This document shows, one piece after another, positions 39,760-55,902 of a DNA stretch of 64,000 nucleotides. The notes below the pieces were generated by a model, which made no database searches, had not been told where the DNA came from, and was given only the letters and a program-made list of their open reading frames with translations. Each line of letters starts with the position of its first letter. Within the stretch, counting starts at the first letter, position 1. The translations under genes were made by a program, and so were the position numbers. Source of the DNA: Myxococcota bacterium (GTDB taxonomy: Bacteria > Myxococcota_A > Polyangia > JAAYKL01); the NCBI GenBank assembly GCA_028278265.1, contig JANQET010000013.1, positions 10,681 through 74,680 of the forward strand, given 5' to 3'.

Positions 39760-39771
39760 GGAGAACGAGAA

Positions 39772-41148: not shown

Positions 41149-41161
41149 CCGGCACTGAGCA

Positions 41162-42129: not shown

Positions 42130-43485
42130 ATGATGCGATTTCTGTTAGGAGCGGTGGTGGGGACGGTATTGTTCGCGGGGTGTTCGTCCGGGGTTCAGCA
42201 AACACCCAATCTGTTGCCCGACCCATCGATGGCGCCGGGAAGAGAGGTCGAGTCGGTGGTTCCCCAGACGGCCGAACCGGAGACGGGCACCGCGAGTACC
42301 CCGGTAGAGCAAGAGGAAGCGGAACCCTCTGCTCCGGCGCCCGATCAACCGAGCGAGGCGACGGTGGTGACCGGCAACACCGAGTTTGCCTTTGGTCTGT
42401 ACCGCCGGCTCGCAGGGCAGGAGGGAAATCTCGCGCTGTCGCCGTACAGTCTCTCGGTGGCACTGGCGATGACCTATGCTGGCGCGCGGGGCAAGACCGC
42501 CAAACAGCTCGCCTACGCCACCCACCTGGCCCATCCGCCGGGCCAGCTGCATCAGCGGTTCTCGACGCTGCAAGCCGACCTCAAGGGGGTCGATTCGGTG
42601 ACCCTGCACATTGCCAACGCCCTGTGGCCCAGCGACGCATACCCCTTCAAAGCGGACTACCTGAGCCTGCTCAAGGAGACCTACCAATCACCGATTACGC
42701 CCCTCGACTACGAGCAGGATTTTCGCCGGGGGCGGCGGGTCATCAACCGCTGGGTCGGTAAGCAGACCAAGGGCAAAATCACCAATCTCATCGAGCCGGG
42801 CGTCCTCGATACCCTGACCAAGTTGGTGCTGACCAACGCGATCTACTTTACCGGCAATTGGGCCGTGCCGTTCGACAAGAAACTGACCAAACGGTTGCCG
42901 TTCCATCTCTCCGAGCAACAGACCGTCAAAGTACCGATGATGGCCGACAAGCGCCGCCTCAAGTTTTACGAAGATCACGAGGTTCAGCTGGTGGAGTTAC
43001 CCTATGAAGGCGAGCGGCTGGCGATGGTGCTGATGCTGCCCAAGAAGGGCAATACCCTGGCCAAGCTCGAGCAATCGCTCAACGGCGACCTGTGGGCGAG
43101 TTGGGCCGGCAGCCTCAATCCCCTCCAGGTGCAGCTGATGTTGCCCCGATTCGAGATCTCCTCCGCATTCAAGCTCGAGGAGCAGCTGAAAAAAATGGGT
43201 GTGTTGGACGCGTTCGACCGCGCGCGGGCTGATTTCAGCGGGATGGCCGAACGGGCTGTGTTGGAGAAACAGGGCAACCTGTATATCTCCGCAGTGATCC
43301 ACAAAGCGTTCACCAAGGTCAACGAAAAGGGCACCACCGCGGCGGCGGCCTCTGCCGTGGTAATGGAGACCTATTCGGCCCCGGCTGAATTTCGCGCGGA
43401 TCGCCCCTTCCTGTTCGTCATTCGCGACACCAAGACCGGCACCGTGTTGTTCATCGGTCGAGTGTCGAATCCCAAAAACAAATAG
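42130..43485 (+). CDS. Serpin family lipoprotein
   Basis: Lipobox FAGC; SPYS, INRWV..QTKGKI, NAIYFTGNW, hinge EKGTTAAAAS and FRADRPFLFVIRD..TG..LFIGRV. Confidence 0.95.
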   Translation: MMRFLLGAVVGTVLFAGCSSGVQQTPNLLPDPSMAPGREVESVVPQTAEPETGTASTPVEQEEAEPSAPAPDQPSEATVVTGNTEFAFGLYRRLAGQEGNLALSPYSLSVALAMTYAGARGKTAKQLAYATHLAHPPGQLHQRFSTLQADLKGVDSVTLHIANALWPSDAYPFKADYLSLLKETYQSPITPLDYEQDFRRGRRVINRWVGKQTKGKITNLIEPGVLDTLTKLVLTNAIYFTGNWAVPFDKKLTKRLPFHLSEQQTVKVPMMADKRRLKFYEDHEVQLVELPYEGERLAMVLMLPKKGNTLAKLEQSLNGDLWASWAGSLNPLQVQLMLPRFEISSAFKLEEQLKKMGVLDAFDRARADFSGMAERAVLEKQGNLYISAVIHKAFTKVNEKGTTAAAASAVVMETYSAPAEFRADRPFLFVIRDTKTGTVLFIGRVSNPKNK

Positions 43486-44455: not shown

Positions 44456-44619
44456 TAGTGCCTCGCCTCGCTGATAACGCCGGGTCACGAGCGAGGCATC
44501 GTCGGCGAGATCAAGGAACGACGACGAAGGACTGGCCGTCGCCAATTCAAGGAGGAGTGACACAGAGATCGTCGATGAGGGCCGCTCTGACCCGGTTTTA
44601 TCAGTGGGGCGCGGTGCTA
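44456..44619 (+). repeat. 164-bp long-hairpin palindromic element (MITE-like or structured RNA)
   Basis: About 37-nt terminal arms pair, with several G.U pairs and few mismatches. CTA occurs at both ends (44455-57 and 44617-19), and there is an inner purine-rich loop and hairpin. Confidence 0.7.
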
Positions 44620-45438
44620 ACGGTAGTTCGTGACCACCACTTCTCCCACATGACCGCGGCGTTCGGCGTTGCTGTTCACGTTTCGCCGGGCCTTGATCAC
44701 GCGAATAGCGTGGCGCCGGTACCGCTCGTGAATCCACGGCACGTCCGCGTTGGAGAGCATCGCCTGAATGCCCTGATCGGTCAGCTTGTCGAACACTTCG
44801 GCCAGTTTCTCCTGGTTGGCCATGCCGAAGCCGTTTTTCTGATAAGCTGTGAAATTGGCCGTTCCCGAGACCGGAATGTAGGGTGGGTCGAAGTAGACAA
44901 AATCTCCGGGCTTGGCGCGTCGGAGCACCGTTTCAAAGGACGCGCATTTGACATCGATCGGGGCCAGGGCCGCGGAGCAGGCCCGCAGATTCGCGGCATT
45001 ACAGATTCGCGGGTTCTTGTACCGTCCAAAAGGTACGTTGAACTGGCCCTTGCTGTTGACCCGGTACAGTCCGTTGAACCCGGCGCGATTGAGGTAGATC
45101 ATTCTCGCCGCGCGGGCCACAGGGGACAACTCGGTCGGATCCTGTGCCCGGATGCGGTAGAAGTACTCTTTGTCATAGATGTGCTTTTCGAGCTTCCCGA
45201 TGAGCGCCTCCACCTTGTTCTTGACCACGTTGTAGGTACCGATCAGCTCTTTGTTGGCATCGGAGAGCACTGCGGTGCGGGGCAACAGGTTGAAAAACAC
45301 CGCCCCGCCGCCGACAAATGGTTCGTGGAATTGTTCGAATTCCACTGGAAACGACTTGTGCAGCTCGGGCAGTATCTGCCGTTTTCCACCGGCCCATTTG
45401 AGGAACGGTTTGGCAAGGGCTGAGTCGGGTTCGGTCAT
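44617..45438 (-). CDS. Dam-like (D12 class) DNA adenine methyltransferase, orphan
   Basis: KPFLKWAGGK, EPFVGGGAVF, FNGLYRVN..G.FNVPFG, DFVYFDPPY and E...NY motifs; no adjacent endonuclease. Confidence 0.92.
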   Translation of the reverse strand: MTEPDSALAKPFLKWAGGKRQILPELHKSFPVEFEQFHEPFVGGGAVFFNLLPRTAVLSDANKELIGTYNVVKNKVEALIGKLEKHIYDKEYFYRIRAQDPTELSPVARAARMIYLNRAGFNGLYRVNSKGQFNVPFGRYKNPRICNAANLRACSAALAPIDVKCASFETVLRRAKPGDFVYFDPPYIPVSGTANFTAYQKNGFGMANQEKLAEVFDKLTDQGIQAMLSNADVPWIHERYRRHAIRVIKARRNVNSNAERRGHVGEVVVTNYR

Positions 45439-45542
45439 TTTCGCTACATCCTCCGCGATCGTGGGTGCCACCTATTCATCTGCACAGTAGAAAAATGGGG
45501 AAACTTGTCAAGTCGGCCCCCCGAATCCCCATTTGTTTAGAG

Positions 45543-46406
45543 CTATTTCTCAGATCTGCCGGTGTACTGTTCCAGCAGCTGGCGGTAGTCTGCCGCCGAT
45601 GCGGCACGGATGGCCGAGATGGTCAGCGCGCGGCACAGATCCCGCCCCTCGGCGGTCTCGCACAACCCCACCAACGCCTTTTTGAGCTTTTCGGTGCGCG
45701 ATTTATCACCGCCGATCACGACCACTGCCGGAGCGGGAATCGGCTTGGAGGTGTGGATGATTTTGAGGTCCTTGGCAAAATCGAGAGAGGGGAGGTGTTC
45801 GACGACCGCCCGGTCGACGATGGCCGCATCTGCCTTGCCGCTCAACACCTGTCGCAACGCCTTGAGGGGGCGTTTTTGGGTCTCCAGGATCACCGAATCC
45901 AGGGGGAGTCGGCCGTCGAGAAGAACCCGCACCACGAAGCGGGAATCGTTGACCACCGCGCCGATCAGCTTCTTCCCCTTGAGCTCGGACAACTCTTTCG
46001 GCCCGTCTAGGCGGGTGAGCACCGAGTAGGTCTCCTCACCGCGACCGTCGATGCTCACTTTGGCGACTACCTTCATCTTCAGTGCCTTGTGCTGTCCGGC
46101 ATAGATCGATGGGCCGACCAGGGCGAGCTCCGGCTTGGTCCGGGTGATCCGCTCGGTTCCCGCGGCACCATCGGGAATGTAGGTGCCCGAAATGCTCTGC
46201 GGGGGTTGTCCGAGCTTGGTTTCCAGGTAGCGCAGCATTTGGTCCACATAGGGTTGAGCCTGGGTGGTGGAGCCGGGAAATCCGGGCAAGCACAACACCA
46301 CGGTGTTGACCTGTCCGAGCGCCGGAAGGACCAGCGCGGTCATCAGGGCAACGGTCATCCAAAAGGGGTGCAACTTACGACTCAAATCGGCCTCCTCGTC
46401 AGGCAT
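45543..46406 (-). CDS. PhnD-like periplasmic substrate-binding protein
   Basis: Signal-like segment; LSELKGKKL, ALRQVLSGKADAAIVD and IIHTSKPIP motifs of the phosphonate-binding fold. Confidence 0.75.
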   Translation of the reverse strand: MPDEEADLSRKLHPFWMTVALMTALVLPALGQVNTVVLCLPGFPGSTTQAQPYVDQMLRYLETKLGQPPQSISGTYIPDGAAGTERITRTKPELALVGPSIYAGQHKALKMKVVAKVSIDGRGEETYSVLTRLDGPKELSELKGKKLIGAVVNDSRFVVRVLLDGRLPLDSVILETQKRPLKALRQVLSGKADAAIVDRAVVEHLPSLDFAKDLKIIHTSKPIPAPAVVVIGGDKSRTEKLKKALVGLCETAEGRDLCRALTISAIRAASAADYRQLLEQYTGRSEK

Positions 46407-46410
46407 CGGC

Positions 46411-47160
46411 TCATCGCGCTCTCATCAGGGCCCGCTTGGTGAAGACGCGGTCGGTGAGCCCGGTGTTGACGCGACAGTCCTTGAATTCCATGATCGTCTG
46501 GGAGCCGGTTCGCTCGTCCACCACGCGGAAATGGGTCGGTACGGTAATCGGTCCGAACGACTTCCAGTTCTTGCGCACTTGGGTCTTGACGTGTTTGTTG
46601 TCGCTACCGAAATATTCGATTCGGGAGACCCCTTCGGTCTTCTTGAGCACTGTCACCCTCAACCGTTTGTACATGGAATCATTATCGGGCGTCGGGAGGA
46701 GATCTAAAATCCACTGCTTCTCGTCCTGGTTGACCACGTTGGCCTTCCAGCCGATGGTCAGCGCCGATCCGCCGATATCATCCGGTGAGAAATCGGTCCC
46801 CATGAATCCCTGATTGCGCACATGTGCGGCAATCCGGCGGACCCGTTGGTAACTGGGTAAATACACGTACATATTGCCGTTTTCAGTGGTCAGGACCGCC
46901 ATTCCCCGCACGTCTCCCGGCGCGGTGAACTTGACCAGCTTCATCTTCAGTCCCTTTAATTTGGCGGTGAAGGCCATCGATTTGATGATCTTGCCGTCGC
47001 GAATGACGTTGAGGGTCGCGTCGTAGGTCTGGTCACGTACCTTGGTCAGGTTGGCGTCTACTTTGGCCATCACATCGGCGGCCTCGTCAGCGCCGGAGAC
47101 CCGCGTGGCGATCAGCACCAGGGCGGCGCAGGCAAATCGGAGCAAGGGGTATTTCTTCAT
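46411..47160 (-). CDS. Outer-membrane lipoprotein-sorting (LolA-like) protein
   Basis: Signal peptide; F.APGDVRGMA.L, YLPSYQRVRRIA, FMGTDFSPDD and NTGLTDRVFT motifs. Confidence 0.85.
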   Translation of the reverse strand: MKKYPLLRFACAALVLIATRVSGADEAADVMAKVDANLTKVRDQTYDATLNVIRDGKIIKSMAFTAKLKGLKMKLVKFTAPGDVRGMAVLTTENGNMYVYLPSYQRVRRIAAHVRNQGFMGTDFSPDDIGGSALTIGWKANVVNQDEKQWILDLLPTPDNDSMYKRLRVTVLKKTEGVSRIEYFGSDNKHVKTQVRKNWKSFGPITVPTHFRVVDERTGSQTIMEFKDCRVNTGLTDRVFTKRALMRAR

Positions 47161-47356: not shown

Positions 47357-48043
47357 CTACATGTAGAAGAGGTTGTCGATGTAGAGGATGGCTCCCTCTT
47401 CCCCGCCGGCACCGGTCATGGAGAACGGCACGTTGAGCGCGCCGAAATCCACCTCATCTCCGGAGTAGTCATCGATCGGAATTTTCAGGTCATGCCATTC
47501 GCCGTCGTTGGTATACCCATACGATCCGGCCTGAACACTGACCGCATCACCGTCATCCTCGTCATCATAGTCGTCGTCATAGGCAAATTTGAGCTGGACG
47601 TCGGCAAATGCATCGTCTGACGATTTGAGACTGACGTAGAGATGATCGTAGTCGAGCAGGGAGACGGTCGACCCGTTGACCAAGTGCACGCCGCCACCCC
47701 ACCAGCTCAGCCCGGCGTGAATGATTTTATGAGATCTTTTGCCCTCATGGACATCTTCGGTGTCGTTCGCCGACGTGTAGGTCGCATCGTTCCGGTCGTA
47801 AATCCAATACGCTGCCTCGATGTTGTTGACCTGTAGCTTGGTCACTTCGCCCGCGTCCGGGCAACCGTCGAAATAGATCCCCACGGAGAACCGCTTTTGG
47901 CCCTCTTCGCAGGGGACAGGACCTTCGACCCATTCGGGTTCGTCCGGGGGAACGTCGTATTCGGGTTGGCCTCCCGGGTCGGGCCGACAGGCGACAAGGG
48001 CCACACAGATGGCCAAGGGAATAATCCTGTTCGATAAATACAT
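47357..48043 (-). CDS. Lipoprotein with carbohydrate-binding (galactose-binding-like/ExoP_C-like) domain
   Basis: Lipobox LVAC; WWGGG, L.VSLKS, DGEWHDLKIPIDDY..VDFGALNVPF and YIDNLF, resembling CBM-like modules of beta-glucanases. Confidence 0.7.
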   Translation of the reverse strand: MYLSNRIIPLAICVALVACRPDPGGQPEYDVPPDEPEWVEGPVPCEEGQKRFSVGIYFDGCPDAGEVTKLQVNNIEAAYWIYDRNDATYTSANDTEDVHEGKRSHKIIHAGLSWWGGGVHLVNGSTVSLLDYDHLYVSLKSSDDAFADVQLKFAYDDDYDDEDDGDAVSVQAGSYGYTNDGEWHDLKIPIDDYSGDEVDFGALNVPFSMTGAGGEEGAILYIDNLFYM

Positions 48044-48058
48044 GACGTCGATACTCCT

Positions 48059-48625
48059 TTAAAACAGATCCGGGTTGCCACCGAGCTGTTCGATGTGATG
48101 CTTGGCCCATTCGGAGAGCTTGAACGCGGTGGTGCCGGTCTCATCATAGGTCACGCTGTCGGGAAAGTGCTCGAGCACCGCGTAGAAGCCGTTGAGCGCC
48201 ATCTGCTTGACCGTCGGCAGGGTCGCCTCATCGACCAACTCGTTCTCATAGATCGCCTTGAGTCGCGTCGCCGCGTAGAATTGAGCCTCTCCGGTCTTCT
48301 CCTTGACCAGCACGGTGGCCCAGCAGTAGAAGGCCAGAATATGCGCCTGGGGTTCCTCCAGACCGTTGTCGTCCGCATAGATCAGCGAGCGCCAGCGAAA
48401 GCCCGGGTCATCGCCCAAGGCGATAAAAATCGGGTCCTCGACAAACATATTGTTGGGATCGGTCATCACCGATTCGTCGGGATAGATGCCCATTTTGACC
48501 GAGTGGAGCTCGAACGTCAGTGTGGAGAGGTCGATTGGGACGATGTACTCGGCCTCGTCCATATCGCAACTGCACAGGGCCATTTGCAGAACACACACCA
48601 GAAAAATTGTTAGATAGTGCCTCAT
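48059..48625 (-). CDS. Helical lipoprotein of unknown function in the GH-barrel operon
   Basis: Lipobox LCSC; GGAGG RBS; 9 nt after the GH-barrel gene stop. Confidence 0.8.
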   Translation of the reverse strand: MRHYLTIFLVCVLQMALCSCDMDEAEYIVPIDLSTLTFELHSVKMGIYPDESVMTDPNNMFVEDPIFIALGDDPGFRWRSLIYADDNGLEEPQAHILAFYCWATVLVKEKTGEAQFYAATRLKAIYENELVDEATLPTVKQMALNGFYAVLEHFPDSVTYDETGTTAFKLSEWAKHHIEQLGGNPDLF

Positions 48626-48634
48626 GGCAGCCTC

Positions 48635-51600
48635 CTAAAAGCTCACATTCATGTACATCACAAACTCGTATTCATTGCCCAAGCGATCCTCCCCTTGAGC
48701 GACCGTGCATTGGGGGATTGTATCGATGCAATGGGGATATCGCTCGGAGTGCTGATCGAGCCAGCGCATCTGATATCGGGCGCCCAAGCGGGTGTAGGGA
48801 ATGAACAGCTTGGGCAGGCTCATCCCATAGGAGAGATCGCCCATCACCTGCATCGGGAAGGTGAGGTCGAAATCCCGATGGTAGTCGTAGGGGCCGAAAT
48901 CGTTGAATTTGACAAAGGCGTGCAGCTGCAGCTTGTCCCACATCAGCCGGGCCTCGGCGCCGTAACGGGTGAGCAGCCGGGATTCGGGCCGGTAGCCCTG
49001 GATTTGCCCGACGTAGAGATCGCTGACGATGTGCAGATTCCAGGCGGGATTGAAGAACAGCTTGGCCCGCCCGTCCCATTCGTTTTTGGCCGGCGGCGCG
49101 CCATCAAAGGCGAAGATGTAGTATTCCGCACTGATCGCGGTGGTGGCATCCCGCTGAGTGGGCTGGATTTTGTAGACGAAGTCCAGGGCAGCGGCAAACG
49201 GCGCATCTTCTTTCTCGTCATTGTCCCAATCCCAGAACCAGGTTTTGGGAGTGGGATCGTACATCAGCACCAGCTCGAAGCCGTAGGTTTCCCGGTTGCC
49301 CAACACGGCGAACGGATCGTCCAGAATGTTTCGCGGCTTGATCCCGGGATAGTAGACGCCGTTGTACAGCCGGCCGCGCAACCGCTCGTCCGTGGGCAGG
49401 GCCCCCTCCAGCGGTCGCTGGAACAGCACGTTGGGCGCGATGAAGAACTTGTTCAGCTGGTAGCGCAGACCGGTCAACGCGTTGAACTGGTTACCCCGTC
49501 CGTCGGCCTTGAGCGTCCAGGGCACCATCGCCGCGGCGTTGTCCGGTCCCCCGTCGGCGACCAGCCCCTGGTAGGCCCCCTGCACGTACCAGTGAATCGG
49601 TCCTACATCCAGGGTCAACCGGGCCTTGGCCCCCAGGGTGTCGAGGAGGTAGATCTCATCGGTCAAAAAGGCGTAGTCGGTGCCCATGTAGCCTGTGCCC
49701 TTGGCGTCGCGCACAGCGACGAATTTCTCGCCCAGCTTGTCCGAACCGGCGAAGATGCCGCCCAGAGACAACCCCAGGGCGCCCTTGCGGTACCCCAAAA
49801 AGAGCGTGGTCTTGCGGGTCTTGGGTTCGGGGATAATGCGCGCCGTGGCACTGGCCTCCTGTTTGGTGAGATCCTCCTGGTGCATCAGGGCAAAGGAGAA
49901 CGGGCCGAACTGCCGGTGGTACTTGGCCAGCACCATCGGGTTGGCGCTCCAGTAGAGCTGCGGTCCAAAGGCGACCTTGAGCCCCTTGAGGGCCTTTTTG
50001 GCATCCAGCACCATGCCGAACGGGGCGCTGGCGTTGTAGATGTCGATGTTCTCGCCGTAAAAGGCTTCCCGGTAGAGTCCGAAGAAGTCCCCTTCGGCGC
50101 CCCAGTGATAGTGGCCGGTGCGGTAGTACCCGTCCAGTTTGAAATAGTCGTTGTCCCAGCTCAGCTCTGATTGGTAGACTTTGATCCGCTCGTTGTCGGT
50201 GAGCATGACCGGGTTACCGTCAGCGTCCTCGATTTCGATGGGGGTGCCTCGGCTCTCGTAGAACAGCTTGTCGATTTTGTTGGTCGGCACGTTGCCCAGG
50301 ACATTCAGCGACACACGCCCTTCGAGTTGGGGAGACGGATTGACCTCGAAATCGAGGAAGAACGATTCCATGTGATCGAACTTGGGCGGCTCGGGTGTGT
50401 CTTCACCCATCGATCGGTCCCCATCGGCGTAGATCATTTCGAACTTCATCTGCGCGCCGACGCCGAACATCTGGGACAATCGGTTCACTCCCACGTTGGC
50501 CATCGCCGCCTCGTACTTGATCCCCTTCTCTTTAGGGTCGAGTTTGGCGAAGTGCTGGCGGATGGCGGTCACATCGACTCCCTCGGCATAGGGATCCAGG
50601 GCAAAGGCCTCCTGCAGCACGTAGTAAGCGGTGCGGGGATAGAGCTCGTACTTGCCTTGCTCATCGGACGGTCCCTTGGCGCAGATCCCCATCCACTCCT
50701 CGTTCATGTTGTTGGTCCCGTCCTTCCAGTCGAACTGGTAACCGGCAGCGGCCCAGGAGGCGGCCGGATCGTGTTTGTCCAGGTTGAGAATCTGGCGGTA
50801 CTTCCACCATCCATCAGACCACTCGAAGACAAATCCACCCAGTGCGATGCCGTGGTTTCCCTTGCCGTGGGTCTGCTCGAGCACGTCCGCCCATTGCCAC
50901 CGCAGGTAGTTGGCCTGAGACAGGTGATCCTCTTTTTTGTCCTGCGCGTGAAACGCGTCTGCACCAAATTCGGTCAACAGTACCGGCAGACCCAGCTTTT
51001 TTTGCGCTCGGAGCCACAGATCCCCGAAGGAAACCCCGCGGTAGGTGTTGGTGCCCAGAATTTCGAGATTCGGACAGTGCTTCTTGATCAGGTCGATGTA
51101 CAACAGATCCCCGTTGGCGATCACTGCCGGATGGTTGGTGTCCCGCTTTTTTATCTCGCCGATAATCTCGTTGTACATGGTGTACAGGTGCACCGCGGCG
51201 GCGCGGGTCGCTTCGTCCTGGGGACCTTTGCTGACGTTGGGGGGCAGCAGGTGGTAGTTGTTCTCGTTGCCCAGCAGCCAGAACAGCAGACCCGGCGTGT
51301 TCTTGTATTTTTCCACCATCGCGATCACGTCCGCCTTGATCGCTTCGCGGGTCGCCGGATCGGAGTAGTCCACCTGGAACCGGGTCGACCCGTTGACCAG
51401 AAAGCCGTAGCGACCGGCGAGGTGGTTGACCGAGGTGAAAATGCCCCAGTTCTGATAGATGAAGGTGATCCATTTGGCCGGGATTCCCACCTCAACGCGA
51501 ATCGCGTTGACCCCCATCTCCTTGAGCATCGTCATGTCGCGACCGAGCACCTCGGCGATGAAGGCGTCCGGTTTGCTCCACAGATCGTAGCGATAGTTCT

Positions 51601-51916
51601 CACCGATGGGGACATAGCCCCAATTCATCCCTTTGACGATGAAATCCCGGCCGTTGACCTGCAGCTTGTAACCGCTTTGATCGTGAACCACGGCAACGGT
51701 TTTGGCGCTACCGGGAGGTGGGGGGGGAGCCTGCTCCTGTGCCTCTTCGGCTGTGGGTTCGGCGGCTTCGGTGTCACCCGCGGCGTCCGGGGGTTGTTCC
51801 GCAGTTTTTTCCGCAGGTTGTTCTGCAGGCTGTTGGGGGTTGTTTTGTGCGTCGGCCAGAGAGACTGCCGGACAGATCAACAAAACAGCGATGAATGGTC
51901 GTAAAAATCGGGGCAT
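48635..51916 (-). CDS. Clan GH-A (GH2/GH158-like) TIM-barrel glycoside hydrolase fused to a predicted outer-membrane beta-barrel
   Basis: Signal peptide and Pro/Gln/Ala/Glu linker. GH motifs MGVNAIR, WLLGNENNY (acid/base), GTNTYRG, LTEFGAD (nucleophile), GGFVFEWSDGWWK and NEEW.G. About 600 C-terminal aa of aromatic amphipathic strands ending in the beta-signal YMNVSF. Confidence 0.82.
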   Translation of the reverse strand: MPRFLRPFIAVLLICPAVSLADAQNNPQQPAEQPAEKTAEQPPDAAGDTEAAEPTAEEAQEQAPPPPPGSAKTVAVVHDQSGYKLQVNGRDFIVKGMNWGYVPIGENYRYDLWSKPDAFIAEVLGRDMTMLKEMGVNAIRVEVGIPAKWITFIYQNWGIFTSVNHLAGRYGFLVNGSTRFQVDYSDPATREAIKADVIAMVEKYKNTPGLLFWLLGNENNYHLLPPNVSKGPQDEATRAAAVHLYTMYNEIIGEIKKRDTNHPAVIANGDLLYIDLIKKHCPNLEILGTNTYRGVSFGDLWLRAQKKLGLPVLLTEFGADAFHAQDKKEDHLSQANYLRWQWADVLEQTHGKGNHGIALGGFVFEWSDGWWKYRQILNLDKHDPAASWAAAGYQFDWKDGTNNMNEEWMGICAKGPSDEQGKYELYPRTAYYVLQEAFALDPYAEGVDVTAIRQHFAKLDPKEKGIKYEAAMANVGVNRLSQMFGVGAQMKFEMIYADGDRSMGEDTPEPPKFDHMESFFLDFEVNPSPQLEGRVSLNVLGNVPTNKIDKLFYESRGTPIEIEDADGNPVMLTDNERIKVYQSELSWDNDYFKLDGYYRTGHYHWGAEGDFFGLYREAFYGENIDIYNASAPFGMVLDAKKALKGLKVAFGPQLYWSANPMVLAKYHRQFGPFSFALMHQEDLTKQEASATARIIPEPKTRKTTLFLGYRKGALGLSLGGIFAGSDKLGEKFVAVRDAKGTGYMGTDYAFLTDEIYLLDTLGAKARLTLDVGPIHWYVQGAYQGLVADGGPDNAAAMVPWTLKADGRGNQFNALTGLRYQLNKFFIAPNVLFQRPLEGALPTDERLRGRLYNGVYYPGIKPRNILDDPFAVLGNRETYGFELVLMYDPTPKTWFWDWDNDEKEDAPFAAALDFVYKIQPTQRDATTAISAEYYIFAFDGAPPAKNEWDGRAKLFFNPAWNLHIVSDLYVGQIQGYRPESRLLTRYGAEARLMWDKLQLHAFVKFNDFGPYDYHRDFDLTFPMQVMGDLSYGMSLPKLFIPYTRLGARYQMRWLDQHSERYPHCIDTIPQCTVAQGEDRLGNEYEFVMYMNVSF

Positions 51917-52010
51917 GATCACACCTGTTGCGGGGTCCATTTTGATTCAACGGGTTAAAGGATTAAAAACGACATGTTACCAGATTTTCAAAAATTGGGA
52001 CTGGGCCCAT

Positions 52011-52058
52011 TTAGTTTGTTCGTTCATCGAACATACTAATTTCGATCACTATTGTCAA
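52011..52058 (-). promoter_or_regulatory. sigma70 promoter overlapped by ROK/XylR-type palindromic operator
   Basis: TTGACA (52058-52053), 17 nt, TATGTT (52035-52030). Palindrome TTAGTTTGTTCG-ttcat-CGAACATACTAA at 52011-52039. Confidence 0.8.
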
Positions 52059-52153: not shown

Positions 52154-52723
52154 CTAATACAGGGCGAATGCCACATCCCAAAAGATATCGACGAGTGTTC
52201 CCAAATGGTACCACTGGGTACCGCTGTGGAACCAGGCGTCACCGTCGTCATACACATCCGCGTTGGTGCCGATAACGCCCAGCTTGGTACTTCCGGTGAT
52301 CGACCCATTTGGCCGTATCTCGATCCAGTAGCGATCGAAAGGAGAAACAGCCGTATCGTCGAGCGGAAAACAGAGCAAGTAGTAGAGATTGTCCGCCGGA
52401 AGACTCACGGTCCACGTTTGGAGTGGCAGACCGGTCTCCTCGTGAATCAGCGACACTGTGTGGGGGCCGACCTCCTGTCCCTTTTCACCGATGAAAAACT
52501 GGACGGCCCGCAAGGTGGAGAGGGGAAGGACGAACGTCTGGCCGATTCGTTCATTGCTCCCGCTGATACTGAACATCGCGTTGAGGGTTTGCAGATTGTC
52601 CAACACGGGAACTCCCTCACAGGGATCTGCGTCAGTGTCGGTGTCGGGATCTGTATCCGTATCCGTGTCCGAATCAGTATCGGCGTCCGCGTCGGTTGTC
52701 TTTGTTTTTATAATTGACTTCAT
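52154..52723 (-). CDS. Asp-Thr repeat protein with beta-sandwich domain; lacks a signal peptide (possibly 5'-truncated)
   Basis: MKSIIKTKTT directly followed by (DA/DT/DS)n; IGQTF...YWIEI pattern. Confidence 0.55.
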   Translation of the reverse strand: MKSIIKTKTTDADADTDSDTDTDTDPDTDTDADPCEGVPVLDNLQTLNAMFSISGSNERIGQTFVLPLSTLRAVQFFIGEKGQEVGPHTVSLIHEETGLPLQTWTVSLPADNLYYLLCFPLDDTAVSPFDRYWIEIRPNGSITGSTKLGVIGTNADVYDDGDAWFHSGTQWYHLGTLVDIFWDVAFALY

Positions 52724-52797: not shown

Positions 52798-54024
52798 TTG
52801 CGAACTGCTGATTCAACTCACATGCGCGCGCTGAACGCCAATTTAATTCTCAAATTGATTTGGAAAGAGAAGAGCATTTCAAGGGCGGAAATCGCACGAC
52901 TCACCGGTTTGGCCCGCTCGACCGTGTCGGAAATTGTCGGTCAGCTGCTCGACCACGGCTTGATCCTCGAGATCGGCACGGCCAAATCGGAGATCGGGCG
53001 TCGGCCGATCATGCTCGTTTTCAACTACGATGCGTTCGGTATCATCGGCATCGACATGGGCGTTACCCATGTGGGGGTGTCAATGGTCAATCTCGGGGGA
53101 GAGGTCAAGTGCTGGCGACAAGTCGAGCACCAGGTTCGGCCGGACCCGCAGGGAACCATCGAGCGCATGAAATCACTGGTTGACGAATGCATCACCGAGA
53201 CCAATTTCAGCCCGGAGCGGCTGGTCGGTATCGGTATCTCCGTACCCAGCCCGGTAGATCCCGGCGATCCGGCGCAATGCCTTTCACCGCTGATTCTGCC
53301 CCATTGGAAGGATTACGATCTGCGGCAGATCTTCGGCCACGCCTACAACACCTCCATTTACGTGGACAACGACGCCAATCTCGGTGCATTGGCAGAGCAT
53401 TGGTGGGGGGCGGGCAAAGGGGGCGAGCACTTGGCGTTCGTCAAAATCGGCTCGGGTATCGGCGCCGGACTGGTCTTCAACGGGGAGATCTATCGCGGCG
53501 CGCGGGGTATGGCGGGCGAGATCGGTCACATGATCATCGATTCCACCGCCTCGCAAACCCTGTTCGGCCACAAGGGCGGACTGGTCACCCTCATCGGATC
53601 CGAAGCCATCGTGGAGAATGTTCAGGCGAGACTGCCCGAGTTTCCCAAGAGCGTGCTCAAGAGCAATGGCGTGAGTGTTCGGGCGGTGGCCGATGCGGCG
53701 CTCGCCGATGATCCCCTGGCCCGCCAGGTCGTTCGCGACGTGGGGTATCACCTGGGTATCGCGGTCGCCAACCTGCTCAATCTGTTCAACCCGTCGATCG
53801 TCGTTCTCGGTGGGGCGATCACCCAAGCCGGTGAGACGCTCATTGAGGACATGAGCGAGGTGGTCAAGGAGCGAACCCTCTGGGAATCGATCTCCGACTC
53901 AAAGCTTCTGATCAGCACCCTCGGCGAGCAGAGCATCTCGGTAGGCGCAGCGACCCAAGTGCTGCACGCCGCCCTGGATGACATGTCGCTCTTCCCACTC
54001 AGCCGCCAAGCCACGCGGCGTTAA
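52798..54024 (+). CDS. ROK family (XylR/NagC-like) transcriptional repressor
   Basis: N-terminal HTH SRAEIARLTGLARSTVSEIV and GRRP; ROK motifs DNDANLGALAE, GSGIGAG and GMAGEIGH. Confidence 0.94.
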   Translation: MRTADSTHMRALNANLILKLIWKEKSISRAEIARLTGLARSTVSEIVGQLLDHGLILEIGTAKSEIGRRPIMLVFNYDAFGIIGIDMGVTHVGVSMVNLGGEVKCWRQVEHQVRPDPQGTIERMKSLVDECITETNFSPERLVGIGISVPSPVDPGDPAQCLSPLILPHWKDYDLRQIFGHAYNTSIYVDNDANLGALAEHWWGAGKGGEHLAFVKIGSGIGAGLVFNGEIYRGARGMAGEIGHMIIDSTASQTLFGHKGGLVTLIGSEAIVENVQARLPEFPKSVLKSNGVSVRAVADAALADDPLARQVVRDVGYHLGIAVANLLNLFNPSIVVLGGAITQAGETLIEDMSEVVKERTLWESISDSKLLISTLGEQSISVGAATQVLHAALDDMSLFPLSRQATRR

Positions 54025-54073: not shown

Positions 54074-54100
54074 GGGCAACCGCGGGGGGATTGCCCCTAC
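54074..54100 (-). repeat. GTAG-family REP-like palindrome overlapping the GH16 stop codon
   Basis: Minus strand reads GTAG-GGGCAATCCCCCCGCGGTTGCCC. Confidence 0.7.
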
Positions 54101-55089
54101 AGACGTTTTAATACGCGGATGTAGTCGACTTCCATCACCTGGGGAAACTCGGTGCTCGAATCCGGATCACCCACGTAGTTGCCGCCCACGCTGACGTTGA
54201 TATTGATGTAGAAATCGTGGTCGAAGACCCAGTTGCCCTGGGCCGAGATGTTGTTCTCGGTGAAGGTGGAGTACTTGGTACCGTCGACGTACCACATCAC
54301 GCGATCCGCTTCCCATTCAATCGCGAACACGGAAAAACGCTCGGCAAACGTATCGTTGCCCGGCAGGGCGTAGTTGCGTGAGAAGCAGTTCCCACCACTG
54401 TAGCCCGGACCGTGCATGCTGCCGTAGATTCGCCCCGGATCGTTCCCCTTGCACTCCATGATATCGATCTCACCGCAGCCCGGCCAGACCGTGGGGTCCT
54501 GTTGGTACTCGGCGCCAATCATCCAAAACGCGGGCCAGATGCCCTGCCCTTGTGGGAGCTTGATGCGGGCCTCGATGCGACCGTAAGTTGTGGCAAAGGT
54601 CTCTCGGGTGGTCAGGCGGGCCGAGGTGTACTGGCGGCCGCCGAAGTCCTCCCGTCGGGCGATGATCTTGAGTTTGCCGTCCTCGACCTTTACGTTGTAA
54701 CCGCGGCTGGTGTAGAACTGCAGCTCCTGGTTGCCCCAACCGCCGTCGAATCCGGTACCGGTGTCAAAGGACCATTTGTCTTCATCAACTGCTGAGCTAT
54801 TGAATTCATCGTGCCAGGCCAGTTCCCAGCCGTCGGGGATCTCATCGGTGTCGAAATCGTCGTCATCGTCATCCCCGGAAGTATCGTCGTCATCGTCATC
54901 GCCGGTGTCGTTGTCGTCATCGTCGTCGTCTGCGGAATCATCATCATCGTCGGTGCCGGCGTCTTCGTAGGTAAAGTCGCCCTGGCAGCCGAGCGCCCAA
55001 AGAGTGAAGACGAGAAGGAGAAAGCATTGGGCGACTCGGCGCACAGGGGGGAGACTTATAAGCGTGCTAAGATCAGCCATTAAGTTCAT
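54097..55089 (-). CDS. GH16 laminarinase-like (beta-1,3-glucanase) lipoprotein with poly-Asp linker
   Basis: Lipobox ALGC; WHDEF, GWGNQELQFY, YTSARL, GIWPAFWM, WP.CGEIDIME catalytic motif and MEVDYIRV. Confidence 0.93.
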   Translation of the reverse strand: MNLMADLSTLISLPPVRRVAQCFLLLVFTLWALGCQGDFTYEDAGTDDDDDSADDDDDDNDTGDDDDDDTSGDDDDDDFDTDEIPDGWELAWHDEFNSSAVDEDKWSFDTGTGFDGGWGNQELQFYTSRGYNVKVEDGKLKIIARREDFGGRQYTSARLTTRETFATTYGRIEARIKLPQGQGIWPAFWMIGAEYQQDPTVWPGCGEIDIMECKGNDPGRIYGSMHGPGYSGGNCFSRNYALPGNDTFAERFSVFAIEWEADRVMWYVDGTKYSTFTENNISAQGNWVFDHDFYININVSVGGNYVGDPDSSTEFPQVMEVDYIRVLKRL

Positions 55090-55137: not shown

Positions 55138-55902
55138 CTACTTTTTCCACTGAACATCTTTAATATAGACAATAACCTCGCGTTTTTCCTCGATCTCGGG
55201 TACGGACCAGGCGAAGGCGCCGACAATCGATTCGTACGTCTCTTCAGAGATATCAATCGAGTATTCTTTGGGGGAATCGGTCAGGGTTACCTCATCGTAG
55301 ACCTCGAACGGATCCTCGTGAGGGGGATCCTCAGTGGGATGCTGCATCCCCACGATCAACCGAGCCTCCTGCGGGGCGGTCTCGGCCCAGGCGGTAACGA
55401 CCACTTCAGTGGCGCCCGGTTCAATTTTCATGCCCGGTTCGAGCCCCCAGTTCCCGTTACCAAAGAGCCAGAACACACCGCCCCATTCATCGCCCGTCCA
55501 AGTGAACATGTGGCAGCGGGCGTCATCCGGATCTTCGGGACACTCGTCTGCGCTCATATCGTTTGGACTGCCTCCGGACATAAAGCCCCCATTGTCATAG
55601 TAGTCGCTGACGTAAAACGGCAGCTTGACCACTTCGTCTCCGTCGCTATCGGAATCGCTGTCCGAGTCGGAATCGGAATCGGAGTCGGTATCACCGTCAC
55701 CGTCTGAATCGGCGTCGCTGTCACCGTCGCCGCCGGAGTCCTCACACTCCCCATCGGCGTTGCAGATCTGGCCATCGGCACAATCGGAGTTGTTGTCACA
55801 CCCCTCGCCTGTATCATCTCCGCCGCTGCATCCCAGCGATAGGGCAAACAGCCCCAATATAAAACTGAATAATACGACCAACTGATTTGCCGATTTTTTC
55901 AT
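55138..55902 (-). CDS. Lipoprotein with small Cys-rich module, Asp-Ser linker and CBM-like domain
   Basis: Lipobox SLGC, CDNNSDCADGQICNADGEC, (DS)n, then WGGVFW..NWG..PG and GAFAW aromatic beta-sandwich. Confidence 0.78.
   Translation of the reverse strand: MKKSANQLVVLFSFILGLFALSLGCSGGDDTGEGCDNNSDCADGQICNADGECEDSGGDGDSDADSDGDGDTDSDSDSDSDSDSDSDGDEVVKLPFYVSDYYDNGGFMSGGSPNDMSADECPEDPDDARCHMFTWTGDEWGGVFWLFGNGNWGLEPGMKIEPGATEVVVTAWAETAPQEARLIVGMQHPTEDPPHEDPFEVYDEVTLTDSPKEYSIDISEETYESIVGAFAWSVPEIEEKREVIVYIKDVQWKK

What the first reader, a model, noticed from the sequence alone, without database searches (positions are those of the whole stretch)
47357..52058. Glycoside hydrolase fused to an outer-membrane beta-barrel, with two lipoproteins: candidate TonB/SusCD-independent glycan capture and import machine
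Seen: one 1093-aa ORF has a Sec signal, a flexible linker and an intact clan GH-A TIM barrel (NE acid/base in GNENNY, nucleophile in LTEFG). About 600 aa of aromatic amphipathic strands follow, ending in a BAM-type beta-signal (YMNVSF). Two closely spaced lipoproteins come next, one helical and one CBM-like. No TonB-dependent receptor, SusD or ABC transporter is encoded in the locus. Known: Bacteroidota use separate SusC, SusD and GH proteins, and GH2/GH158-like enzymes occur in beta-1,3-glucan loci. Inference: the barrel is either an oligosaccharide pore with a tethered periplasmic hydrolase or an autotransporter-like anchor displaying the enzyme outside. The lipoproteins would be functional analogues of SusD/SusE. 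Homologues may already exist in databases annotated only as GH2.
Basis: partly seen in the sequence, partly recalled or inferred. Interest (0 to 1): 0.85.

Follow-up and report, generated by a model that had tools for sequence, protein, structure and literature searches.

The report
Beta-glucanase fused to outer-membrane barrel
One long secreted protein joins a laminarin-type sugar-cutting enzyme to a very large outer-membrane barrel of an undescribed family, and it sits in beta-glucan feeding gene clusters of many bacterial phyla where the usual SusC/SusD importer is missing.

Summary
ORF 48635-51940 (-) encodes a signal peptide, a clan GH-A domain closest to GH158/GH157 endo-beta-1,3-glucanases, and about 610 residues that AlphaFold2 models confidently (pLDDT 92.6) as a beta-barrel of about 26 strands. 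Every structural match to that part is a membrane barrel, and no Pfam or NCBIfam family covers it. Two conserved-lipobox lipoproteins follow. LP2 is a CBM-like module; LP1 is helical and of no known family.

The fusion is widespread: at least 592 species genomes across Myxococcota, Gemmatimonadota, Bacteroidota, Ignavibacteriota, Calditrichota and others. Sources name it GH2, GH5, glycosidase or hypothetical.

In 50 related loci with at least 5 kb on both sides:
- GH16 is present in 49.
- LP2-like lipoproteins are present in 46.
- An MFS_2 transporter is present in 38.
- GH149 is present in 27.
- A TonB-dependent receptor is present in 3.

My best reading is that this is the outer-membrane part of a SusCD-less beta-1,3-glucan utilisation locus: probably a TonB-independent oligosaccharide channel with a tethered glucanase. 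Membrane location, transport, the side the enzyme faces and lipoprotein binding are all inferred, not shown. I found no paper describing the barrel. One published Muricauda laminarin locus with the same gene order calls the gene in that position a GH2 glycosidase.

The parts
48635..51940 (-). Whole ORF of the GH158-like glucanase fused to the outer-membrane barrel (1101 aa; alternative start at 51916 gives 1093 aa)
   Evidence: Full-length homologues at 44-51% identity and 88-100% coverage. Full-length AF2 model: pLDDT 84.7, pTM 0.79.
51848..51940 (-). N-terminal Sec (SPase I type) signal peptide, residues 1-31
   Evidence: Read from the translation. Model helix 13-21. No lipobox at the cleavage site; this is my reading of the sequence.
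51701..51847 (-). Pro/Glu/Ala-rich disordered linker, residues 32-80. Not conserved, and absent in Bacteroidota homologues.
   Evidence: pLDDT below 50 for residues 23-70. No conservation in the A1 consensus. Bacteroidota N-termini run straight into the GH domain.
50546..51700 (-). Clan GH-A (beta/alpha)8 domain, GH158-like, residues 81-465. Acid/base E226 is at 51263-51265 and nucleophile E324 at 50969-50971. A family-specific Trp-rich insertion spans residues 372-419 and contains NNMNEEW.
   Evidence: Pfam GH2_C E 5.1e-5. PDB profile hits 6pal E 3.7e-7 and 9oro E 3.4e-6, with NE/TE aligned. Foldseek best hits are GH158 (2.0e-13) and GH157 (3.6e-12). Invariant residues.
50471..50545 (-). Poorly conserved helical linker (helix 469-487) between enzyme and barrel
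   Evidence: DSSP of the model. Mean column conservation 0.49 for residues 466-492.
48638..50470 (-). C-terminal beta-barrel of about 26 strands, residues 491-1101. No Pfam or NCBIfam family.
50021..50122 (-). Most conserved long barrel loop, residues 607-640: R.GH.HW..EGDFFG.Y..A.YG...D.Y...AP. Aromatic and acidic; a candidate glycan path or constriction.
   Evidence: Mean conservation 0.87 in 80 sequences against 0.62 for the strands. The motif is kept in stand-alone barrels P0219 and P0230.
48638..48667 (-). C-terminal strand ending ...YMNVSF, a candidate BAM beta-signal
   Evidence: The last residue is hydrophobic in 72 of 74 homologues, with Leu in 55.
48059..48625 (-). Found only in Myxococcota-type loci.
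   Evidence: Cys20 invariant in 14 of 14. Present in 14 of 80 loci, always directly after the barrel gene. Atlas lead to TPR_6/YfiO at 0.87, below the 0.9 mark. Predicted complex with the barrel: weak support, 0.32 against 0.00.
47357..48043 (-). LP2: 228-aa lipoprotein (Cys19) with a CBM-like beta-sandwich module
   Evidence: Pfam Exop_C E 0.097. PDB CBM11 E 0.027. Atlas 0.94 Exop_C / CBM-cenC and 0.93 CBM30. The same module is repeated in the 460-1318-aa lipoproteins next to the barrel gene in other phyla. In L029 it follows what reads (my reading) as the end of a GH16 domain.
52798..54024 (+). Divergent ROK-family regulator with an N-terminal HTH
   Evidence: Pfam ROK E 1.5e-49 and HTH_24. 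A ROK homologue is present in 20 of 50 well-flanked related loci.
54097..55089 (-). GH16 lipoprotein (lipobox LGC, poly-Asp linker, EIDIME catalytic motif)
   Evidence: Pfam GH16 E 1.5e-24. Translation. GH16 is present in 49 of 50 well-flanked related loci.
55138..55902 (-). Lipoprotein with an Asp/Ser-rich linker and a roughly 165-aa C-terminal domain of unknown family, directly upstream of GH16. A possible further glycan-binding protein.
   Evidence: No Pfam hit. Weak homologues in 3 of 80 loci.

Best explanation
The 1101-aa protein is exported by Sec. Its C-terminal 610 residues are inserted into the outer membrane as a barrel of about 26 strands, belonging to a family that has not been described. 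Its N-terminal domain is an active GH158-like retaining endo-beta-1,3-glucanase.

It is the outer-membrane component of a beta-1,3-glucan (laminarin or fungal glucan) utilisation locus that has no SusC/SusD pair.

Proposed mechanism (inferred):
1. Surface lipoproteins bind and nick the glucan. These are the GH16 enzyme and the CBM-like LP2, or its multi-module relatives in other phyla.
2. Oligosaccharides pass through the barrel without TonB, along conserved aromatic and acidic loops.
3. The tethered glucanase cuts them. It most likely sits at the periplasmic mouth, because both barrel ends lie on the short-turn side. Cutting makes entry effectively one-way.
4. In most related loci an MFS_2 symporter and a cytoplasmic GH149 phosphorylase finish the job.
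5. LP1 may bind the barrel as a lid or plug.

Shown here: the sequence features, the fold prediction, the family breadth and the gene neighbourhoods. Inferred: membrane location, transport, orientation, substrate and lipoprotein contacts.
For: Barrel:
- The domain model has pLDDT 92.6 and pTM 0.89, with 26 long strands.
- Tight 2-3-residue turns fall at 8 of the 12 even-to-odd strand junctions and at none of the 13 odd-to-even ones (coordinates). This places both the N- and C-ends of the barrel on one side.
- All structural matches are membrane barrels.
- No Plug or TonB_dep_Rec hit at E<=1.

Enzyme:
- NE and nucleophile E are invariant and align to BuGH158.
- The Foldseek top hits are GH158 and GH157 laminarinases.

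Gene context (families identified):
- Of 50 loci with at least 5 kb on both sides: GH16 in 49, LP2-like lipoprotein in 46, MFS_2 in 38, GH149 in 27, GH17 in 25, GH30 in 14, GH3 in 14, and a TonB-dependent receptor in 3.
- All 50 have at least one beta-glucan CAZyme.
- The nearest listed SusC-family match is at least 21 kb away in 5 of 5 genomes.

The barrel looks like more than an anchor:
- Loops 607-640, 662-668 and 1016-1026 have conservation 0.87-0.96. The strands have 0.62 and the GH domain 0.69.
- The same motifs are kept in stand-alone barrels that have their own signal peptides.

Lipoproteins:
- In low-GC loci, 22 of 24 LP2-like lipoproteins with a lipobox carry at least 2 acidic residues just after the Cys. 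That is the Bacteroidota surface-export pattern as I recall it.
- LP1 with the barrel scored ipSAE 0.32 (runs 0.55, 0.32, 0.31) against a best control of 0.00. Partner pLDDT was at least 78 and the runs shared at least 51% of contacts.
- That mark was reached by 58 of 80 solved complexes and 2 of 110 mismatched pairs. At 0.60 or under it was reached by only 7 of the 80 and by both mismatches that passed. The tool's verdict is weak support.

Precedent: an inner-membrane MFS-GH17 'transporter-CAZyme fusion' in laminarin loci (passages of PMC6246565).
Against: General limits:
- Nothing experimental was available.
- I could not see model coordinates or PAE, so the side on which the enzyme docks and whether the lumen is open are unknown.

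Points against an open channel or a periplasmic enzyme:
- The conserved loops could occlude the barrel completely.
- GH158 in Bacteroides uniformis is, as I recall, a surface enzyme.
- One homologue (P0204) carries an N-terminal CBM_4_9. That fits an enzyme that meets polymer outside.

Points from the window genome and locus:
- The window locus has no MFS_2, GH149, GH17, GH30 or GH3 within it.
- GH149 was not found in the genome, which is 90.65% complete.
- The genome has a second LP1-LP2 pair with no barrel beside it, so the lipoproteins need not be obligate partners.

Other weaknesses:
- TonB-dependent receptors do occur in 3 of 50 loci, in L050 directly after the barrel gene.
- The complex score is weak.
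- The C-terminal residue is mostly Leu, not aromatic, and the amphipathicity measure is modest.
Confidence: 0.5

Rival explanations
1. Surface display. The barrel is mainly an anchor, and the N-terminal chain threads through it in an autotransporter-like way, so the glucanase works outside the cell. It would either feed products into the pore beneath it ('a utilisome in one polypeptide') or leave uptake to other porins.
For: - A helix (469-487) and about 45 poorly conserved linker residues come directly before strand 1, as in autotransporters.
- The long conserved loops are on the side opposite the chain ends and could be a docking surface.
- pTM 0.79 for the whole protein suggests a fixed domain arrangement.
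- Variants carry an N-terminal CBM_4_9 or a second, degenerate GH-like domain.
- BuGH158 is a cell-surface enzyme; this is recalled from the title and abstract of PMC7157763 as listed.
Against: - About 26 strands is far more than an anchor or a 12-strand autotransporter pore needs.
- The conserved loop motifs persist in stand-alone barrels that have no enzyme, so they are not just a docking surface.
- A folded 385-residue TIM barrel is a poor passenger.
- There is no autotransporter family hit.
- The loci offer no other outer-membrane route in 47 of 50 cases.
Confidence: 0.27
2. Export rather than import. The barrel secretes a beta-glucan or another exopolysaccharide, and the fused hydrolase trims it, as with PgaA/PgaB, BcsC/BcsZ, PelB/PelA or AlgE/AlgL.
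For: - Hydrolases accompany synthase-dependent exporters (established knowledge).
Against: - None of the gene families I identified in the related loci is a synthase, glycosyltransferase or co-polymerase.
- The conserved partners are catabolic: GH16, GH17, GH30, GH3, GH149 phosphorylase, an MFS_2 importer and sugar-responsive regulators.
- There is no TPR scaffold on the barrel protein.
Confidence: 0.05
3. The C-terminal half is not a membrane barrel but a soluble beta-rich domain (for example a binding or oligomerisation domain) of a periplasmic or secreted glycosidase.
For: - The face-hydrophobicity contrast of the strands (2.41) is only modestly above that of the soluble GH strands (1.84), and the C-terminal residue is rarely aromatic.
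- Structure prediction is not a measurement.
Against: - pLDDT is 92.6 for a single all-beta domain of 26 antiparallel strands with alternating short and long connections.
- All 50 best of 48,161 representative chains are membrane barrels, and no soluble fold appears among the listed Foldseek rows, one artificial metalloprotein apart.
- The terminal residue is hydrophobic in 72 of 74 homologues.
Confidence: 0.04

Closest known systems
SusC/SusD transporters and 'utilisomes' of Bacteroidota polysaccharide utilisation loci
   Same: - Same place in the pathway and the same gene company: a surface GH16, glycan-binding lipoproteins, a regulator, periplasmic GHs and an inner-membrane MFS.
- An enzyme is physically coupled to the outer-membrane channel.
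   Different: - No Plug, TonB box or TonB_dep_Rec signature, and no SusD.
- The barrel has about 26 strands rather than 22.
- The enzyme is covalently fused.
- It is found well outside Bacteroidota.
- SusC genes lie at least 21 kb away in the 5 genomes checked.
GH158 endo-beta-1,3-glucanases (BuGH158, PDB 6pal; GH158(Pro), 9oro) and GH157
   Same: - Best sequence-profile and fold matches for the N-domain.
- The catalytic NE and TE motifs align.
- GH158 is a member of canonical laminarin PULs (passages of 10.64898/2026.01.10.698779).
   Different: - Only 13-17% identity in the structural alignments.
- A family-specific Trp-rich insertion at 372-419.
- Fused to a barrel instead of being a lipoprotein.
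- CAZy assignment was not testable here, and sources call it GH2 or GH5.
TonB-independent sugar channels (maltoporin LamB, ScrY, chitoporin ChiP, CymA, OprB)
   Same: - The proposed mode of action is passive passage of oligosaccharides along aromatic residues.
   Different: - Those have 14-18 strands, are often trimers, and have no fused enzyme.
- No sequence relation was found.
LptD/LptE and MtrB/MtrA (26-strand barrels filled by a partner protein)
   Same: - An N-terminal soluble domain, plus a small lipoprotein encoded next door that may sit in or on the barrel (weak support).
   Different: - No sequence relation.
- LptD is not among the listed matches.
- Different cargo and direction of transport.
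- LP1 is present in only 14 of 80 loci.
Chaperone-usher pore FimD/PapC
   Different: - 24 strands, with a plug and periplasmic N and C domains.
- No Usher family hit.
- Unrelated function. The likeness is that of large barrels in general.
Enzyme-barrel fusions: autotransporter esterase EstA and patatin PlpD (recalled), and myxobacterial GluM, an outer-membrane beta-barrel beta-1,6-glucanase
   Same: - A hydrolase and an outer-membrane barrel in one polypeptide.
- GluM is likewise a glucanase of predatory myxobacteria (passage of review PMC10800785).
   Different: - 12-16-strand barrels in the autotransporters.
- GluM is, as I recall, an Oar/TonB-receptor-like protein without a recognisable GH domain. 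The original paper could not be read.
MFS-GH17 'transporter-CAZyme fusion' of Formosa laminarin loci
   Same: A transporter fused to a beta-1,3-glucanase in laminarin utilisation, with the argument that coupling hydrolysis and transport helps uptake (passages of PMC6246565).
   Different: An inner-membrane helical transporter and a GH17 enzyme, not an outer-membrane barrel and a GH158-like enzyme.
'GH2 beta-glycosidase' of the Muricauda lutaonensis laminarin PUL
   Same: The published gene order LuxR - GH2 - one or two GH16 - GH149 - GH17 - GH30_1 - MFS (section 5 of PMC13188888) matches my Bacteroidota loci: BguR-like - GH-barrel - lipoprotein - GH16 - GH149 - GH17 - GH30.
   Different: - I could not fetch the Muricauda protein, so identity with this family is inferred from synteny only.
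- The section I read and the term passages shown do not mention a barrel. A passage of its discussion treats the GH2 as a beta-1,6-glucosidase.

Membership tests
GH158 (CAZy) / clan GH-A | (beta/alpha)8 fold with the acid/base Glu in an NE motif after strand 4 and the nucleophile Glu after strand 7 | tested here: met
   The model shows alternating strand-helix units across 82-371. N225, E226 and E324 are invariant in 74 sequences. They align with GNE and TEWG of 6pal.
GH158 (CAZy) / clan GH-A | Significant sequence similarity to characterised GH158 members | tested here: inconclusive
   Profile against 6pal gives E 3.7e-7 over 198 positions, and against 9oro E 3.4e-6. Foldseek E is 2e-13 but identity is 13-17%. 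This is distant; it could be a new family or subfamily. dbCAN/CAZy was not available.
GH158 (CAZy) / clan GH-A | Endo-beta-1,3-glucanase activity | not testable with these tools
   Only gene context speaks for it.
GH2 | N-terminal sugar-binding and Ig-like domains preceding the TIM barrel (Pfam PF02837, PF00703) | tested here: not met
   Only PF02836 is hit, at 23 bits against a cut-off of 21. There are no PF02837 or PF00703 hits at E<=1. The NCBIfam beta-galactosidase models score 11-25 bits against cut-offs of 544-1284.
TonB-dependent transporter / SusC | Plug domain, TonB box and TonB_dep_Rec barrel signature | tested here: not met
   [not shown]
TonB-dependent transporter / SusC | Adjacent SusD-like lipoprotein | tested here: not met
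   LP1 and LP2 have no SusD family hit. No SusD-family protein turned up among the neighbour ORFs scanned.
Classical autotransporter (type Va) | 12-strand C-terminal barrel (PF03797) with a pore-spanning helix | tested here: not met
   About 26 strands and no PF03797 hit. A helix does precede the barrel, but its position could not be inspected.
Outer-membrane beta-barrel protein (general) | Signal peptide; an even number of antiparallel strands with short turns on one side and long loops on the other; a hydrophobic C-terminal strand | tested here: met
   (prediction only).
Outer-membrane beta-barrel protein (general) | Location in the outer membrane | not testable with these tools
   Needs fractionation, heat-modifiability tests or a solved structure.
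Bacterial lipoproteins (LP1, LP2, GH16) | Signal peptide ending in a lipobox with an invariant Cys | tested here: met
   LP1 has L-C-S-C20, invariant in 14 of 14. LP2 has L-V-A-C19, with 'GC/AC RPDP' in most homologues. GH16 has A-L-G-C.
Carbohydrate-binding module (LP2) | Similarity to a known CBM family at or above the curated threshold | tested here: inconclusive
   Exop_C E 0.097, 12.9 bits against a cut-off of 26.1. CBM11 of endoglucanase H E 0.027. Atlas 0.93-0.95 to Exop_C, CBM-cenC and CBM30 clusters. The module is appended to a GH16 end in L029. These are three weak pointers in one direction; none is decisive.
LptD/LptE-like plug-and-barrel | Small lipoprotein bound inside or on a 26-strand barrel | tested here: inconclusive
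   Predicted complex: weak support, 0.32 against a best control of 0.00. No interface was given.

The most novel reading that the evidence does not exclude
This is a third kind of outer-membrane glycan importer, beside TonB-driven SusCD and small sugar porins. It would be a giant barrel of about 26 strands from an unnamed family that passes laminarin-size oligosaccharides without TonB. A covalently tethered endo-glucanase at its periplasmic exit would act as a hydrolytic ratchet. CBM lipoproteins would serve it, and in Myxococcota an LptE-like partner, LP1, as well. It would be the ancestral or alternative 'selfish uptake' device for beta-1,3-glucan in at least ten phylum-level groups, including Bacteroidota that also own dozens of SusCD pairs.
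Probability: 0.35. Interest if true: 0.88.

Novelty: new variant of a known kind. Interest (0 to 1): 0.78.

Why it matters
Laminarin is among the most abundant marine glycans, and beta-1,3-glucan is the main wall polymer of fungal and oomycete prey of myxobacteria.

Glycan uptake across the outer membrane is currently explained almost entirely by SusCD-type TonB-dependent transporters, and SusC/D expression is used as a field proxy for glycan use. A widespread family that takes their place in beta-glucan loci would be missed by those proxies. It occurs in at least 592 species genomes and in 21 of 201 sampled genomes of the window's own phylum. Current annotation calls it GH2, GH5 or hypothetical.

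If the barrel is a channel, it offers a TonB-independent route for large oligosaccharides and a natural enzyme-channel fusion for structural and biophysical study. If it is only an anchor, it is still a new way to display a glycosidase on Gram-negative cells.

Either way there are two practical gains: the 'GH2' of published laminarin loci should be re-read, and the barrel domain deserves a family of its own.

Tried and rejected
Hypotheses and links I tested and dropped:
- **LolA_like and PhnD-like genes as part of the system.** Rejected: 0 of 80 related loci have them.
- **Relation of the barrel to DUF5916.** This is the large beta domain behind CBM9 that sits upstream of the gene in Gemmatimonadota loci. 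hhalign probability was 0.2. Only a single sequence was on one side, so this is not excluded.
- **A 'second barrel-only paralogue' in Bacteroidales loci L052/L064.** I withdrew this. These 547-579-aa ORFs begin like GH-A enzymes, and neither phmmer nor the A1 profile finds any barrel in them.
- **LP1 homology to the N-terminal part of the large lipoproteins of other phyla.** None was found after three profile rounds. The PDB profile search for LP1 gave only chance-level rows.
- **GH149 in the window's genome.** Not found with two queries. The genome is 90.65% complete.

Things that were unavailable:
- **Expression.** No RNA holder was listed for 47357-52058.
- **Orientation of the GH domain and openness of the lumen.** The tools return no coordinates or PAE, so I could not decide these.

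Literature. None of eight full-text searches turned up a paper that describes this fusion or the barrel family. The terms were:
- GH158 + outer membrane
- laminarin + GH149 + beta-barrel, 0 papers
- DUF5916, 0 papers
- GH149 + gene cluster + laminarin + transporter
- GluM + outer membrane + glucanase + myxobacteria
- GH158 + barrel + C-terminal domain, 1 unrelated paper
- laminarin + TonB-independent, 1 paper
- glycoside hydrolase + fused + outer membrane beta-barrel + polysaccharide utilization, 1 unrelated paper

The library lacks most subscription journals, and supplements are closed. Supplementary Figures S2-S5 of PMC6246565 (Formosa PUL maps) and Fig. 1 of PMC13188888 could show whether those loci hold this protein. 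I did not see them.

Full report
**What is there**

On the minus strand, ORF 48635-51940 gives a 1101-aa protein. It is 1093 aa from the second Met, which is the form held in the databases as P0004. It starts with a Sec signal peptide and a non-conserved Pro/Glu/Ala linker.

Residues 81-465 are a clan GH-A TIM barrel:
- Pfam sees only a borderline GH2_C match (E 5.1e-5, 23 bits against a cut-off of 21). None of the GH2 accessory domains is hit.
- A profile of 74 homologues finds BuGH158 (6pal, E 3.7e-7) and GH158(Pro) (9oro, E 3.4e-6) as its best solved relatives.
- The invariant N225-E226 and E324 align with the acid/base and nucleophile motifs of these enzymes.
- The full-length AlphaFold2 model (pLDDT 84.7, pTM 0.79) has GH158 (E 2.0e-13) and GH157 (E 3.6e-12) laminarinases as its top Foldseek hits.

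**The C-terminal half**

Residues 491-1101 have no Pfam or NCBIfam family, and neither do ten related barrel-only proteins or fragments.

Modelled alone with 69 sequences, this part gives pLDDT 92.6 and pTM 0.89, with 26 strands of 7-17 residues:
- Two- or three-residue turns fall at 8 of the 12 even-to-odd strand junctions and at none of the 13 odd-to-even ones. Most of the long connections, up to 42 residues, are on the other side.
- That is the pattern of an outer-membrane barrel whose two ends both face the periplasm (coordinates).

Structural matches:
- All but one of the 44 Foldseek rows listed are named membrane barrels: BtuB, MOMP, OmpF, Occ channels, AlgE, FimD, PapC and MtrB. The exception is an artificial metalloprotein.
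- No single family stands out, so I read it as a large barrel of a new family.

Other sequence evidence:
- The last residue is hydrophobic in 72 of 74 homologues. It is Leu in 55 and aromatic in only 4.
- My simple amphipathicity measure is only modestly above that of the soluble strands.

**The lipoproteins**

LP1 (48059-48625) and LP2 (47357-48043) follow at 9 and 15 nt, and both have conserved lipobox cysteines.

LP1:
- It has no family. The only lead is an Atlas score of 0.87 to small TPR_6/YfiO-like proteins, below the tool's 0.9 mark.
- It occurs in 14 of 80 related loci, always directly after the barrel gene.

LP2 looks like a CBM-type beta-sandwich, on three weak pointers:
- Exop_C at E 0.097.
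- CBM11 at E 0.027.
- Atlas 0.93-0.95 to Exop_C, CBM-cenC and CBM30 clusters.

A profile built from LP2's close homologues already finds, at round 1, the 460-1318-aa lipoproteins encoded next to the barrel gene in other phyla. These contain the module several times. In L029 the module follows what reads as the end of a GH16 domain and carries a C-terminal tail that looks like a secretion sorting domain; both are my reading of the alignment.

A predicted complex of the barrel with LP1 gave weak support:
- ipSAE was 0.32 (runs 0.55, 0.32, 0.31) against 0.00 for the best control. Partner pLDDT was at least 78 and the runs shared at least 51% of contacts.
- That mark was reached by 58 of 80 solved complexes and 2 of 110 mismatches. 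In the range of 0.60 or under it was reached by only 7 of the 80 and by both mismatches that passed.

**How widespread**

- 4973 proteins of 605-1927 aa match at E<=0.001 among the 8000 candidates scored. The best 120 have 44-51% identity over 88-100% of the query.
- The barrel domain alone matches 382 representative clusters.
- By record title, the best 80 come from Myxococcota/'Deltaproteobacteria', Gemmatimonadota, Bacteroidota (Flavobacterium, Saprospiraceae, Bacteroidales, Chitinophagales, Aureispira), Ignavibacteria, Calditrichota, Latescibacterota, Krumholzibacteriota, Eisenbacteria, Fibrobacteraceae, Delongbacteria and Rhodothermales.
- In a sample of the window's own phylum, 21 of 201 genomes (13 of 143 genera) have it. 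Nineteen of the 21 matches lie in open frames of 1036-1305 aa, which is the fused form. The other two (G121, G192) appear as two adjacent pieces.
- All 80 loci hold an ORF covering both domains.
- At least two stand-alone barrels with their own signal peptides exist, P0219 and P0230.
- Variants carry an N-terminal CBM_4_9 (P0204), or a second GH-like domain without the NE motif.
- Sources name these proteins hypothetical, beta-galactosidase, GH2 TIM-barrel protein, GH5 family protein or glycosidase.

**Gene company**

In the window, a ROK regulator is divergent (52798-54024). A GH16 lipoprotein (54097-55089) lies beyond it, with a further lipoprotein upstream.

Counts by tblastn with queries from several phyla:

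| Family | All 80 related loci | 50 loci with at least 5 kb on both sides |
|---|---|---|
| GH16 | 59 | 49 |
| LP2-like lipoprotein | 66 | 46 |
| MFS_2 | 46 | 38 |
| GH149 | 33 | 27 |
| GH17 | 31 | 25 |
| ROK | 25 | 20 |
| GH30 | 16 | 14 |
| GH3 | 17 | 14 |
| BguR-like regulator | 15 | 13 |
| LP1 | 14 | 7 |
| CBM9-DUF5916 | 5 | 5 |
| TonB-dependent receptor | 3 | 3 |

- All 50 well-flanked loci have at least one beta-glucan CAZyme. The 12 of 80 without any are short, or cut close to the gene on one side.
- The families were identified by Pfam. GH149 was identified by its match to 6hq6 (E 0).
- GH3 was recognised from its N-terminal motif, which is my reading, not from a Pfam call.
- My ORF calling in high-GC loci is crude and my receptor search used three seeds, so some receptors may have been missed.
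- In five genomes (four Bacteroidota, one Ignavibacteriales) that own 35-45 SusC-family matches each, the nearest listed match lies at least 21 kb from the barrel gene. For L078's genome, none is listed on that contig. 46 weak matches were not listed.

**Conservation inside the barrel**

In 80 sequences from all these phyla, several long loops are more conserved than the strands (0.62) and the enzyme domain (0.69):
- 607-640: 0.87
- 662-668: 0.96
- 1016-1026: 0.94
- 792-817: 0.77
- 895-914: 0.77

They are rich in aromatic and acidic residues, and the stand-alone barrels keep them. That is unusual for exposed loops of an outer-membrane protein. It argues that they line or gate the lumen, so the barrel does more than anchor.

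**Mechanism**

I think the protein is the outer-membrane component of a SusCD-less beta-1,3-glucan utilisation system:
- Surface lipoproteins (GH16, LP2-type) capture and nick the glucan.
- Oligosaccharides pass the barrel without TonB.
- The tethered GH158-like domain cuts them.
- An MFS_2 symporter and GH149 finish the pathway in most loci.

Both barrel ends lie on the short-turn side, and Bacteroidota homologues have a plain signal peptide with no lipid anchor or secretion tail. I therefore favour a periplasmic enzyme.

The autotransporter-like alternative, with the enzyme outside, remains quite possible. A helix precedes strand 1, GH158 of Bacteroides is a surface enzyme as I recall, and some variants have a CBM.

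Export of a polymer is unlikely given the catabolic company. A soluble C-terminal domain is unlikely given the fold evidence.

Against my reading for this particular genome:
- The window locus lacks MFS_2, GH149, GH17, GH30 and GH3.
- GH149 was not found in the 90.65%-complete genome.
- A second LP1-LP2 pair stands without a barrel on contig C364.

**Comparison with what is in print**

- The canonical Formosa agariphila laminarin PUL has SusCD plus GH16_3, GH17, GH30_1, GH149 and a separate GH158, under the regulator BguR (passages of preprint 10.64898/2026.01.10.698779).
- The GH149 paper noted that Bacteroidetes GH149 genes lie in PULs and also in 'CAZyme clusters lacking susCD-like gene pairs' (passages of PMC5827456).
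- The Muricauda lutaonensis laminarin locus is described as LuxR - GH2 beta-glycosidase - GH16 - GH149 - GH17 - GH30_1 - MFS (section 5 of PMC13188888). That is the gene order of my Bacteroidota loci, with the fusion protein in the 'GH2' position. The section I read and the passages shown for my search terms do not mention a barrel. I could not fetch that protein, so the identification rests on synteny.
- Formosa B has an inner-membrane MFS-GH17 fusion, called the first transporter-CAZyme fusion (passages of PMC6246565).
- Myxobacterial GluM is an outer-membrane barrel with beta-1,6-glucanase activity (passage of review PMC10800785). The original paper was not held.
- None of eight full-text searches turned up a description of this fusion or barrel family.

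**Verdict**

Function, topology and lipoprotein roles are untested, and the exact three-gene order is confined to Myxococcota-type loci.

I rate it a new variant of a known kind: a glycan utilisation locus with a new type of outer-membrane component. Interest is high because the family is large, conserved across phyla, confidently modelled, mis-annotated and directly testable.

Noticed in passing
window 55138-55902 (-): A 254-aa lipoprotein (P0274) with a long Asp/Ser-rich linker and a roughly 165-aa C-terminal domain without a Pfam family, directly upstream of the GH16 lipoprotein. Weak homologues lie near GH16 in 3 of 80 loci.
   Followed up: partly
window 52154-52723 (-): A 189-aa ORF (P0273) between the ROK gene and the fusion gene. 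It has Asp-Thr repeats at the N-terminus, no signal peptide, no Pfam hit and no homologue in 80 loci. It may be a remnant or a small unknown protein.
   Followed up: partly
window 45543-47160 (-): A LolA_like protein (PF17131, E 2.1e-40) and a PhnD-like periplasmic binding protein (E 4.6e-20) lie 196 nt downstream of LP2, followed by a Dam-type methyltransferase (44617-45471). None is conserved with the fusion gene.
   Followed up: partly
own genome contig C364:7158-8595 (-): A second LP1-LP2 pair (42% and 33% identity) with no barrel gene beside it, downstream of a 972-aa ORF whose C-terminal end looks like a histidine kinase (my reading).
   Followed up: partly
L031, L041, L050, L073 (Gemmatimonadota), e.g. 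L050:5522-7732: A CBM9_1 + DUF5916 protein, that is another carbohydrate-binding module in front of a large beta domain, lies directly upstream of the fusion gene. No profile relation to this barrel was detected.
   Followed up: partly
L006:1000-4362: The barrel gene and LP1 lie in one open frame of 1120 aa, which is either a real fusion or an assembly error.
   Followed up: no
P0007, P0037, P0053, P0091 (1340-1378 aa); P0204 (1218 aa): Longer homologues carry either an extra N-terminal GH-A-like domain that lacks the NE motif, followed by a Pro-rich linker, or an N-terminal CBM_4_9.
   Followed up: partly
window residues 372-419 of the fusion protein (about 50684-50827): A family-specific Trp-rich insertion in the GH domain. 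It includes the invariant NNMNEEW, has no regular secondary structure and has lower pLDDT (59-73). It is absent from the aligned part of BuGH158 and could be a substrate platform or the contact with the barrel.
   Followed up: no
window 42130-43485 (+), 56395-58716 (-), 58886-61255 (+): A bacterial serpin (E 5.3e-114), a C25 gingipain-type peptidase and an S46 dipeptidyl-peptidase flank the locus. The nusA-infB-rbfA-truB cluster lies at 34096-42052.
   Followed up: no
L037, L033, L034, L040, L050, L073 (Gemmatimonadota), e.g. L037:12984-15050: The MFS_2 transporters here are 688-705 aa, about 200 aa longer than the usual 476-490. The iterated LP2 profile also hit them at E 1e-25 to 1e-30, which may be profile drift or an appended domain. 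This recalls the MFS-GH17 fusion of Formosa.
   Followed up: no
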